A stretch of DNA of 64,000 nt from the human T2T-CHM13v2.0 reference genome, Homo sapiens. The position numbers and the translations under genes are program-made. Where the stretch lies: assembly GCF_009914755.1 (NCBI RefSeq), contig NC_060930.1; one strand, written 5' to 3'. The notes under the pieces were generated by a model that saw only the letters and a program-made list of their open reading frames with translations, made no database searches and was not told the DNA's origin. Below, one piece after another: positions 16,340 through 16,815 of this stretch (the stretch's first letter is position 1; each line of letters begins with the position of its first letter).

Positions 16340-16810
16340 CTCTTTCCTCTCAGTTTGTAAATATTCTTGTCATTCCCCTCTTTATAAAGATCTTGTCTAT
16401 ACCCTGTGTTTTCCACTAGTTACTGCCTAGCTTTTTCTTTCCTTTAAATTCCAGCTTCTAAAGAGAATAAGACTATTCTTACAGTCTTTTTCCCTTTGGG
16501 CTGGAGACAATCTGATTTATGCTTCCAGGTTTCTCCATCAAAACTATCTTCTCCAAGGTCGCAAATGGCCTCCCGGTTACAGATCCCAAATGGGACTTGT
16601 CAGTCCTTATTTTACTTGCCTCTCTCTGGTATTTGTCCTTGCTGACCATGCTTTCCTAAATCTTTTCCTGTTGACAACATAGCGCAACTTTCTATTGGTT
16701 TTCCCCTTACCTCTATTAGAGTGACTTTTCTGCCTGCTTGCTTGTTCTTCCTCATCCGTGTATCCATTATGTGTCCTTGGTCCTCATGGCTCTGTTCTTT
16801 TCTCATTTCA
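16340..16810 (+). mobile_element. L2 reverse-transcriptase region (hosts the AHI1 exon in antisense)
   Basis: aaactatcttctccaaggtcgcaaatggcctcc / cagtccttattttacttg / gctgacca / tggttttccccttacctct / ggtcctcatggctctgt are colinear with the L2 RT motifs TETALVKVTNDL, LLDLSAAFDTVDH, WFSSYL and GVPQGSVLGP. Confidence 0.75.
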
Positions 16811-16813
16811 GAA
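16711..16813 (-). CDS. AHI1: AHI1 last sense-codon exon (103 bp, phase 2 to 0)
   Basis: (H)[34 protein letters not shown], the AHI1 C-terminus as I recall it. Acceptor tttccctcctatag|TTC, donor GAG|gtaagg. Confidence 0.95.
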
Positions 16814-16815
16814 CT

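What the first reader, a model, noticed from the sequence alone, without database searches (positions are those of the whole stretch)
16500..16815. AHI1 C-terminal coding exon appears to be exonised antisense L2 reverse transcriptase
Seen: plus-strand 16508-16805 is colinear with the L2 RT-coding region as I remember it. caatctg...aaactatcttctccaaggtcgcaaatggcctcc corresponds to TETALVKVTNDL; cagtccttattttacttg-cctctc...tttgtccttgctgacca to LLDLSAAFDTVDH; tggttttccccttacctct to WFSSYL; ccattatgtgtccttggtcctcatggctctgt to GVPQGSVL. The whole 103-bp exon (SEMRKEQ...RKVTLIE) lies in the WFSSYL-to-GVPQG stretch, read antisense. Its donor GAG|gtaagg is the reverse complement of the L2 SYL codons. 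Inference: the Jouberin tail is a domesticated TE sequence, and its K/R/E richness reflects the purine-rich antisense strand of L2. L2 is an ancient family, so the exon should be shared across mammals but absent outside them. I cannot check whether this has been described before.
Basis: partly seen in the sequence, partly recalled or inferred. Interest (0 to 1): 0.8.

Follow-up and report, generated by a model that had tools for sequence, protein, structure and literature searches.

The report
AHI1 tail exon made from L2
The exon that encodes the last 34 amino acids of the Joubert-syndrome protein AHI1 (Jouberin) is built from the reverse strand of an ancient L2 jumping-gene fragment, an ordinary kind of event but a clean, placental-wide example in a disease gene.

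Summary
Window 16196-16810 (+) is a decayed internal fragment of an L2-type LINE reverse-transcriptase gene. A DNA profile built from 31 other human copies hits 16533-16757 at E=1e-10, the best hit in the window; on the reversed window the best E is 1.8. A frameshift-tolerant alignment to a platypus RT scores 145, against a maximum of 78 in 300 shuffles.

The 103-nt AHI1 exon (16711-16813, minus strand) lies antisense inside this fragment. Its donor GAG|gtaagg is the reverse complement of the RT codons in the W-F-S-x-Y-L motif. The acceptor AG and polypyrimidine tract (16814-16880) lie just beyond detectable L2 homology.

The exon length is 3n+1. Including it shifts the terminal exon into a frame that opens with TAA. 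Skipping it gives the alternative tail KELKKS*, which is also predicted in other mammals.

The exon peptide is present in 76 of 120 retrieved Jouberin proteins, from 50 named taxa in all four placental superorders. Conservation is weak: 59% identity to human in non-primates. Some lineages have lost the end of the tail.

Marsupials, monotremes, birds and fish could not be retrieved. No paper found mentions this origin. Verdict: a new member of a known kind (TE exonization), of moderate interest.

The parts
16196..16810 (+). Decayed internal fragment of an L2-type LINE reverse-transcriptase ORF. It runs from the N-terminal half of the RT to the GVPQGSVL motif. It has no YADD motif and no 3' end, and carries several frameshifts and stops.
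   Evidence: Frameshift-tolerant alignments to 7 of 9 RT proteins end at 16799 and start at 16167-16534. nhmmer alignment 16533-16757, envelope 16514-16793, E 1.5e-12 and 1e-10. hmmalign match columns run to about 16810. No RT homology at 16800-18800.
16711..16813 (-). AHI1 exon 28 of 29 (NM_001134831.2), 103 nt. It encodes the last 34 residues of Jouberin and lies antisense within the L2 fragment.
   Evidence: Exon borders come from the hub gene table. The exon slice alone carries RT similarity on the opposite strand.
16705..16713 (-). 5' splice site GAG|gtaagg, the reverse complement of L2 codons CCT TAC CTC (P-Y-L of the WFSPYL motif).
   Evidence: In the aligned columns of other L2 copies, 14 of 29 keep the antisense GT and 9 of 29 keep GAGGTA.
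16814..16880 (-). 3' splice site AG and polypyrimidine tract (...ctccttgtttctgatctttccctcctatag|). On the plus strand this is a purine-rich stretch at and beyond the edge of detectable L2 homology.
   Evidence: sequence context; not aligned to the L2 profile or to RT proteins; no other copy in the genome by DNA search.
11914..11935 (-). Start of the terminal exon. In the frame set by the L2 exon it opens with stop TAA (11933-11935). In the frame set by skipping that exon it encodes (H)KELKKS followed by a stop.
   Evidence: The skip-form tail matches predicted isoforms of gibbon, marmoset, tarsier, pangolin, naked mole-rat and chinchilla.
26788..26846 (-). Upstream exon, which splices either to the L2 exon or directly to the terminal exon.
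   Evidence: Hub gene table.
16612..16887 (-). 91-codon open frame spanning the exon and reading through its donor (…[13 protein letters not shown]…). It is predicted as a protein isoform in Old World monkeys and a gibbon.
   Evidence: ORF. (P0014, P0015, P0017, P0089, P0090, P0092, P0118).

Best explanation
Origin. An L2 LINE copy sat antisense in the 3' part of AHI1 before the placental radiation. About 615 bp of the RT-coding part of that copy survive at 16196-16810.

How the exon formed. The antisense strand of the RT region encoding W-F-S-S-Y-L carries a ready-made 5' splice site. It reads GAG|GTA in many L2 copies and GAG|GTAAGG here. Paired with an AG and a pyrimidine tract at the edge of the fragment, this defines a 103-nt cassette exon.

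Effect on the protein. The L2 sense strand is pyrimidine-rich, so the exon is purine-rich and encodes a K/R/E/Q-rich, probably disordered, 34-residue tail. The exon length is 3n+1. Inclusion therefore shifts the terminal exon into a frame that begins with TAA, and Jouberin ends ...RKVTLIE. Skipping gives the tail ...HKELKKS*, which is longer in other mammals and is probably the older one.

Shown versus inferred.
- Shown: the TE origin, its orientation, the donor origin, the frame logic, and the placental-wide presence.
- Inferred: the time of insertion, that KELKK is the ancestral tail, and that the peptide is under weak constraint concentrated in its last ~12 residues, with an unknown molecular role.
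For: L2-type origin.
- The DNA profile from other human copies hits 16533-16757 (+) as the best hit in the window: E 1.5e-12 with 33 copies and 1e-10 with 31 copies that exclude the two found through this locus. The reversed-window control gives a best E of 1.8.
- P0124 aligns with 81 identities in 206 columns, score 145, z=13, reached by 0 of 300 shuffles.
- P0124 is a UniRef platypus RNA-directed DNA polymerase with 92-97% identical paralogues in platypus. L2 is the dominant LINE of platypus (PMC3501640, passage).
- All 12 long RT hits tested (12 of 123 hits) carry Pfam RVT_1, and 3 also carry the APE-type endonuclease domain.
- The same protein query finds 146 further copies in the human genome at E<=0.01, of 150 scored.

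Exon and frame logic.

Donor pre-formed in L2.

Composition.

Phyletic spread. 76 of 120 listed Jouberin proteins hold the peptide. They include Afrotheria (Trichechus, Loxodonta, Echinops), Xenarthra (Tamandua), Laurasiatheria and Euarchontoglires.

Constraint. In 28 species the only length changes are in-frame (1-, 1- and 4-codon deletions; two rows are only partly aligned, Molossus lacking the first 4 columns and Erinaceus the last 4). The end kvtl.e is at least 80% conserved.
Against: - Pfam RVT_1 does not detect the six stop-free plus-strand pieces (0 of 6 at E<=10).
- Single tblastn hits are marginal, best E 0.02.
- The locus was not among the 150 candidates scored in the genome-wide protein search.
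- The family name L2 rests on the platypus relative, on abundance and on recalled knowledge, not on a Dfam or Repbase match.
- The acceptor side is not demonstrably L2.
- Constraint is weak. Identity to human in 22 non-primates is 0.59, against 0.66, 0.77 and 0.98 for the three upstream exons. A crude neutral simulation gives 0.47 at 0.35 substitutions per site and still leaves the frame stop-free in 36% of runs.
- Human and orangutan differ at 3 of 34 residues here and at 0 of 105 in the other three exons.
- The tail end is lost or changed in Talpa, Condylura, Mustela, Cavia and Erinaceus.
- Predicted proteins are in frame by construction, so ORF preservation is partly an ascertainment effect.
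Confidence: 0.87

Rival explanations
1. The exon is L2-derived and spliced in, but its peptide is effectively neutral. It is a tolerated, disordered appendix with no selected function, so this is exonization without domestication.
For: It is the least conserved of the four tail exons (0.59 identity). That is only modestly above a crude neutral expectation of 0.47 at d=0.35. There are 3 human-orangutan differences in 34 residues, against 0 in 105 upstream. The tail end is lost in moles, mustelids and guinea pig. The skip isoform is predicted in many species.
Against: The frame and length are kept in 50 named taxa of all four placental superorders. Among the 28 aligned species, length changes are in-frame only. 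The last residues (kvtl.e) are at least 80% conserved. The RefSeq Select transcript includes the exon (hub table).
Confidence: 0.4
2. The fragment belongs to another non-L1 LINE clade of the human genome (CR1/L3 or RTE), not to L2 proper.
For: No named repeat library (Dfam, Repbase) could be searched. The protein libraries give no clade names.
Against: The best intact relative is a platypus RT with many near-identical paralogues, in a genome where L2 is the dominant LINE (PMC3501640 passage). The locus matches a DNA profile of copies that are numerous in the human genome. All close RT relatives share the LLDLSAAFDT(V/I)DH and WF(K/S)SYL motifs seen in the copy.
Confidence: 0.07
3. The RT resemblance is chance similarity in a pyrimidine-rich stretch, and the exon is not TE-derived.
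For: Compositional bias is high (nhmmer bias 20-21 bits). Pfam finds nothing. The pairwise alignment to the other L2 piece in the window is not significant.
Against: Dinucleotide-preserving shuffles never reach the observed scores: 0 of 500, 0 of 300 and 0 of 300. The opposite strand scores 33-45. The region is the best of 462 tiles. nhmmer E-values are computed after bias correction, and the reversed-window control gives a best E of 1.8. Eight of nine RT proteins align along one colinear path.
Confidence: 0.02
4. An older AHI1 exon already existed here, and L2 inserted into or beside it, so only part of the exon is L2.
For: The acceptor AG, the polypyrimidine tract and possibly the first 3-14 nt of the exon are not demonstrably L2.
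Against: Between 89 and 100 of the 103 exon bases lie inside the colinear L2 alignment, including the donor. The exon slice alone is significant. The terminal exon encodes a complete alternative tail when this exon is skipped.
Confidence: 0.04

Closest known systems
L2 (LINE-2) exonizations catalogued genome-wide (Sela et al. 2007, Genome Biol 8:R127, PMC2394776; passages read)
   Same: An intronic L2 fragment supplies the exon body and a splice site. The paper lists 103 human L2 exonizations, 62 of them antisense. The TE gives the whole exon in 41% of cases, only the 5'ss side in 30% and only the 3'ss side in 29%.
   Different: That survey found only six TE exons orthologous between human and mouse (4 MIR, 2 DNA repeats, no L2) and reports mostly low-inclusion cassette exons. 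This exon is coding, sits in the RefSeq Select transcript, and is present in a muroid rodent (Scotinomys) and in all four placental superorders. AHI1 is not mentioned in the paper's main text. Its supplementary lists could not be opened.
Conserved MIR exonizations (DMWD and MYT1L exons in Sela et al. 2007)
   Same: An ancient mammalian-wide repeat turned into an exon shared by human and rodents, either constitutive or alternative.
   Different: Those come from a SINE, not from the protein-coding part of a LINE. Here the new peptide is the antisense reading of a reverse-transcriptase ORF. It also acts as a frame-shifting penultimate exon that swaps the protein's C-terminus.
Antisense Alu exonization
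   Same: The antisense strand of a retroelement offers cryptic splice sites, and the product is an alternative cassette exon (PMC2394776 passages).
   Different: Alu uses its poly-A, read as poly-T, as the polypyrimidine tract, and is primate-specific. Here the donor is the pre-formed element, the pyrimidine tract lies outside the recognisable element, and the event is of placental age or older.

Membership tests
L2 (LINE-2) retrotransposon fragment | Coding homology to APE-type LINE reverse transcriptase of the L2 group, colinear over a long stretch | tested here: met
   colinear frameshift-tolerant alignments over 16196-16799, with 0 of 300-500 shuffles reaching the scores. The relatives carry RVT_1 (12 of 12 tested) and Exo_endo_phos (3 of 12). 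The best relative is a platypus RT.
L2 (LINE-2) retrotransposon fragment | Membership of the interspersed repeat family at DNA level in the same genome | tested here: met
   The nhmmer profile of 33 or 31 other human copies gives E 1.5e-12 or 1e-10, the top hit of the window. A BLAST-type DNA search finds no close copy, as expected for an ancient repeat.
L2 (LINE-2) retrotransposon fragment | Match to the named L2 consensus or profile of Dfam/Repbase (subfamily call) | not testable with these tools
   No repeat library is on hand. The name L2 rests on the platypus relative, on copy abundance and on recalled knowledge.
L2 (LINE-2) retrotransposon fragment | Rest of the element (RT catalytic YADD region, 3' end) adjacent and colinear | tested here: not met
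   No RT homology at 16800-18800 and no profile match past about 16810. This is an internal fragment only, which does not argue against its origin.
TE exonization (cassette exon born from an intronic TE) | Exon body lies within the TE | tested here: met
   Between 89 and 100 of the 103 nt are in the L2 alignment.
TE exonization (cassette exon born from an intronic TE) | Splice sites supplied by the TE | tested here: inconclusive
   The donor is inside L2 and is pre-formed in 9-14 of 29 other copies. The acceptor AG at 16814-15 and its pyrimidine tract lie 4 nt or more beyond the last aligned L2 base.
TE exonization (cassette exon born from an intronic TE) | An exon-skipping isoform exists | tested here: met
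   Direct joining of exon 26788-26846 to the terminal exon gives ...THKELKKS*. That tail occurs in predicted isoforms of several orders. These are predictions; RNA evidence was not examined.
TE exonization (cassette exon born from an intronic TE) | Exon absent from lineages that lack the insertion | not testable with these tools
   The 120 proteins listed (of 194 hits) are all placental where named. No non-eutherian sequence or genome was reachable.
Domesticated (selected) TE-derived coding sequence | Reading frame kept across deep lineages | tested here: met
   76 of 120 proteins and 50 named taxa hold the peptide. In the 28 aligned species, length changes are in-frame only. Exceptions: Talpa, Condylura, Mustela, Cavia, Erinaceus.
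Domesticated (selected) TE-derived coding sequence | Purifying selection (dN/dS below 1; exon more conserved than the flanking TE) | not tested
   No orthologous nucleotide sequences were available. Protein identity of 0.59, against a crude neutral 0.47, is only suggestive.
Domesticated (selected) TE-derived coding sequence | Demonstrated function of the TE-encoded peptide | not testable with these tools
   The AHI-1 review passages read (PMC3282096) describe C-terminal isoform differences but assign no role to this tail.

The most novel reading that the evidence does not exclude
The L2 exon is a mammalian innovation, possibly specific to placentals. It switched Jouberin's C-terminus from an ancestral KELKK-type tail, encoded in the terminal exon, to a 34-residue basic tail. 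The conserved end of that tail (KNEQ..RKVTLIE) would be a selected docking or targeting motif. Regulated inclusion or skipping of this frame-shifting L2 cassette would then tune Jouberin function in cilia or nuclear signalling.
Probability: 0.2. Interest if true: 0.55.

Novelty: new member of a known kind. Interest (0 to 1): 0.38.

Why it matters
AHI1 is a major Joubert-syndrome gene, and its reference protein ends in sequence that is the antisense reading of a retrotransposon's reverse transcriptase.

This gives a dated (placental or older), well-bounded example of an L2 coding-region fragment creating a new protein C-terminus through a frame-shifting cassette exon. An early genome-wide survey found no L2 exon shared by human and mouse.

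In practice it bears on three things:
- variants in the last coding exon may be interpreted with a likely low constraint in mind;
- it explains the alternative Jouberin C-termini seen in gene models;
- it predicts what non-mammalian orthologues should look like, namely a KELKK-type tail.

It does not change how TE exonization is understood.

Tried and rejected
- Pfam scan of six stop-free plus-strand pieces: nothing at E<=10. The copy is too decayed and too frameshifted for RVT_1.
- BLAST-type DNA search of the human genome with 16400-16900 and with 16811-17500: only self matches.
- In-window tblastn and blastn self-comparison: marginal hits only.
- 47-aa piece against the genome: five weak hits, E 0.3-4.9. 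These were used only as leads.
- Word-indexed protein search with the L004 piece: none found.
- tblastn of 123 RT proteins against the window: at the locus only E 0.02-1 (7 HSPs).
Two ancient copies are too diverged for this; only the profile links them.
- One of nine RT proteins (P0125) gave a non-colinear alignment, score 64 at 15936-16578. That is within the shuffle range seen for the other proteins, so I treated it as noise.
- Search for RT homology downstream of the exon: none.
- Retrieval of non-eutherian Jouberin. The one suitable search listed only the best 120 of 194 hits, and all named ones were placental.
- Literature searches that found nothing relevant: AHI1+exonization (1 unrelated paper, listing only); AHI1+LINE-2+exon (0); AHI1+transposable element+exonized (0); Jouberin+retrotransposon (2 unrelated, listing only); AHI1+TE-derived (0).

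Full report
**What is at the coordinates.**

The window sequence and the six-frame translation show that 16711-16813 on the minus strand reads, after one leading base, 34 codons from SEMRKEQ to RKVTLIE.
- Joining the five annotated coding parts in a script gives an SH3 domain followed by a tail that ends ...RKVTLIE, then a stop. All exon borders are AG/GT.
- The stop is the first three bases of the terminal exon (11933-11935, TAA).
- The donor is GAG|gtaagg. The acceptor is preceded on the minus strand by ...ctccttgtttctgatctttccctcctatag.

**Is the plus strand L2 reverse transcriptase?**

Quick tests were weak.
- Pfam found nothing in six stop-free plus-strand pieces (0 of 6 at E<=10).
- A BLAST-type DNA search of the human assembly found only the locus itself.
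- In-window self-comparison gave marginal hits.

I therefore built references from natural sequences.
- A 47-residue plus-strand piece gave five weak genomic hits. One of them (L004) holds a 79-residue open RT-like frame.
- An exhaustive search with that frame found 123 proteins at E<=1e-3. All 12 long ones that I tested carry Pfam RVT_1, and three also carry the APE-type endonuclease domain.

I wrote a frameshift-tolerant protein-to-DNA local alignment (BLOSUM62, gap 6 per residue, frameshift 9).
- P0130 residues 420-512 align to 16534-16799 (+) with 36 identities in 95 columns and three frameshifts.
- Zero of 500 dinucleotide shuffles reach the score (70; mean 37, SD 5.8, max 63). The reverse complement scores 33. 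The region is the best of 462 window tiles, the next scoring 59.
- Other proteins do better. P0124 scores 145 (81 identities in 206 columns, 16226-16799) and P0126 scores 129 (88 in 220, 16196-16799). P0145, P0153, P0121 and P0123 score 110, 104, 95 and 87.
- Seven of the nine proteins tried end at 16799. P0144 covers the upstream part of the same path. P0125 gave a non-colinear alignment of score 64 that I regard as noise.
- Shuffles for P0124: 0 of 300 (mean 51.4, SD 7.2, max 78). For P0126: 0 of 300 (max 95).
- The slice 16690-16830, which holds little more than the exon, is significant by itself for two of three proteins: 0 of 500, 0 of 500 and 4 of 500.

**DNA-level family membership.**

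I searched the human assembly with P0130 and with a 137-residue part of it. The second search gave 146 matches at E<=0.01 among 150 scored, out of 4969 first-look candidates. Both searches returned many decayed copies.

Choice of copies for the profile:
- I cut the RT segment out of 34 loci with the same aligner; their scores were 82-222.
- I dropped one duplicate (L046, the same place as L004).
- I did not use L008 and L017, which cover another part of the RT.
- I did not use L018-L037, which have long open frames at 21-25% identity and which I take to be L1.
- I did not use L003, L006 and L007, the other weak hits.
- L009, L010, L012, L013, L015, L016 and L020 are the same places as L038-L041, L049, L055 and L061, and entered under the latter ids.

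A profile of the remaining 33 copies, run with nhmmer, hits 16533-16757 (+) as the best of 11 listed hits (envelope 16517-16793; 40.6 bits, E=1.5e-12). Leaving out the two copies first found through this locus (31 copies) gives E=1e-10. The reversed window gives a best E of 1.8.

hmmalign carries match columns to about 16810; everything from 16811 on is unaligned. RT parts downstream of GVPQGSVL find nothing at 16800-17300 or 16800-18800 (four proteins; 12 to 184 of 200 shuffles reach the observed score in the shorter stretch, 12 to 59 of 60 in the longer).

The fragment is therefore internal, about 16196-16810. It lacks the catalytic YADD region and the 3' end.

**Which LINE?**

No repeat library was available, so the name cannot be read off a database.
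- The best intact relative, P0124, is annotated in UniRef as an RNA-directed DNA polymerase of platypus. It has paralogues there at 92-97% identity. More distant relatives occur in frogs and fishes.
- A review passage, citing Warren et al. 2008, states that about 1.9 million L2 copies dominate the platypus genome and that some are possibly viable (PMC3501640).
- Together with the abundance of the family in the human genome, this makes L2 the likely label. I put CR1/L3 or RTE at about 7%.

**How the exon is made.**

The donor lies in the codons CCT TAC CTC of the WFSPYL motif. In the aligned columns of the other copies, 14 of the 29 with letters in all nine columns keep the antisense GT, and 9 of 29 keep GAGGTA. 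The 5' splice site was therefore essentially pre-formed in the element.

The acceptor AG (16814-15) and its pyrimidine tract lie 4 or more bases beyond the last aligned L2 base. The 3' side cannot be assigned to L2.

- The exon sense strand is 71% purine.
- The L2 sense strand here is 65% pyrimidine. The 33 other copies average 63.5%.
- Window tiles average 49% (SD 5.9%), and only 0.6% of tiles reach 65%.

This explains the K/R/E/Q-rich peptide.

The exon is 103 nt, which is 3n+1.
- With the exon included, the terminal exon is read from TAA.
- With the exon skipped, exon 26788-26846 joins the terminal exon in another frame and the protein ends ...THKELKKS*.
- That tail, longer in other species, occurs in predicted isoforms of gibbon, marmoset, tarsier, pangolin, naked mole-rat, chinchilla and shrews.

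The L2 cassette thus swaps one C-terminus for another. Because the stop sits in the last exon, inclusion should not trigger nonsense-mediated decay; this last point follows from the established rule and was not tested.

**Phyletic spread and constraint.**

A search with the SH3 exon gave 194 proteins at E<=0.001 among 197 candidates. The best 120 were listed, and every named one is a placental mammal.
- 76 of the 120 contain the exon peptide (local score >=60), from 50 named taxa plus unnamed clusters.
- These include Trichechus, Loxodonta and Echinops (Afrotheria), Tamandua (Xenarthra), many Laurasiatheria, and rodents and primates. The superorder assignments are from general knowledge.
- The other 44 are fragments, skip or other isoforms. 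For several genera (for example Dasypus, Choloepus, Elephantulus, Chrysochloris, Tupaia, Callithrix) only such forms were listed. That does not show absence.

Constraint is weak.
- Mean identity to human in 22 non-primates is 0.59 for this exon. It is 0.66 and 0.77 for the two preceding tail exons and 0.98 for the SH3 exon.
- Only one column is invariant among 28 species. The columns of the end kvtl.e, and a few others, are at least 80% conserved.
- Human and orangutan differ at 3 of 34 residues here and at none of 105 upstream.
- Talpa and Condylura stop before RKVTLIE. Mustela, one Cavia model and Erinaceus have a different end.
- A crude neutral simulation gives 0.47 identity, and 36% stop-free frames, at 0.35 substitutions per site.
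- Preservation of frame and length in so many lineages suggests some constraint, but predicted proteins are in frame by construction, and no dN/dS could be computed.

**What stays open.**

Marsupial, monotreme, bird, reptile, amphibian and fish Jouberin could not be retrieved.

**Comparison with what is known.**

TE exonization is well described.
- Sela et al. 2007 (PMC2394776; passages read) list 103 human L2 exonizations, 62 of them antisense.
- They found only six TE exons orthologous between human and mouse, none of them L2.
- Five full-text searches that paired AHI1 or Jouberin with exonization or TE terms found nothing relevant.
- An AHI-1 review (PMC3282096; passages) mentions C-terminal isoform differences but no TE origin.

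A standard RepeatMasker track may well show the overlap. The instance is best called a new, apparently undescribed member of a known kind.

**Verdict.**

Two points refine it: the 3' splice site lies outside detectable L2, and the exon acts as a frame-shifting switch of the C-terminus. Two points stay open: age beyond placentals, and selection on the peptide. Interest is moderate.

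Noticed in passing
window 31420-31589 (+): A second L2-type RT fragment is detected by the same DNA profile (E 6e-5 and 1e-4). It covers the part of the RT around GVPQGSVL and beyond.
   Followed up: partly
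Two colinear profile hits were found: 42712-42774 at E 3.4-3.6, and 42839/42912-42986 at E 0.003-0.004. It is not significantly alignable pairwise to the AHI1 copy.
   Followed up: yes
window 19160-19363 (+): A cluster of 12 weak tblastn hits (best E 0.03) from the RT protein set, matching the start of the RT domain. It is probably another ancient LINE fragment. It is not colinear with the fragment at 16196-16810.
   Followed up: no
window 11914-11935 (-): The terminal exon encodes the alternative tail (H)KELKKS* in the frame used when the L2 exon is skipped. In human a stop cuts this tail short compared with the longer predicted tails of several other mammals (KELKKNEE... types).
   Followed up: partly
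window 16612-16887 (-): The donor read-through frame (…[13 protein letters not shown]…, a 91-codon ORF) is annotated as a protein isoform in Old World monkeys and a gibbon. That makes a second, longer antisense-L2-encoded tail.
   Followed up: partly
proteins P0042, P0046, P0049, P0056-P0058, P0060, P0062, P0095, P0096 (gibbons): Gibbon models extend the tail by PGVLPQK after ...TLIE. Some also insert QRSPTSQS before the exon peptide, which points to lineage-specific splice variants around this exon.
   Followed up: no
window 16711-16813 (-), proteins P0037 and P0061: Human (identical to gorilla) and orangutan differ at 3 of 34 residues in this exon and at none of 105 residues in the three upstream exons. 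This is compatible with near-neutral change in great apes. It may contribute to reported fast AHI1 evolution on the human lineage (review passage).
   Followed up: no
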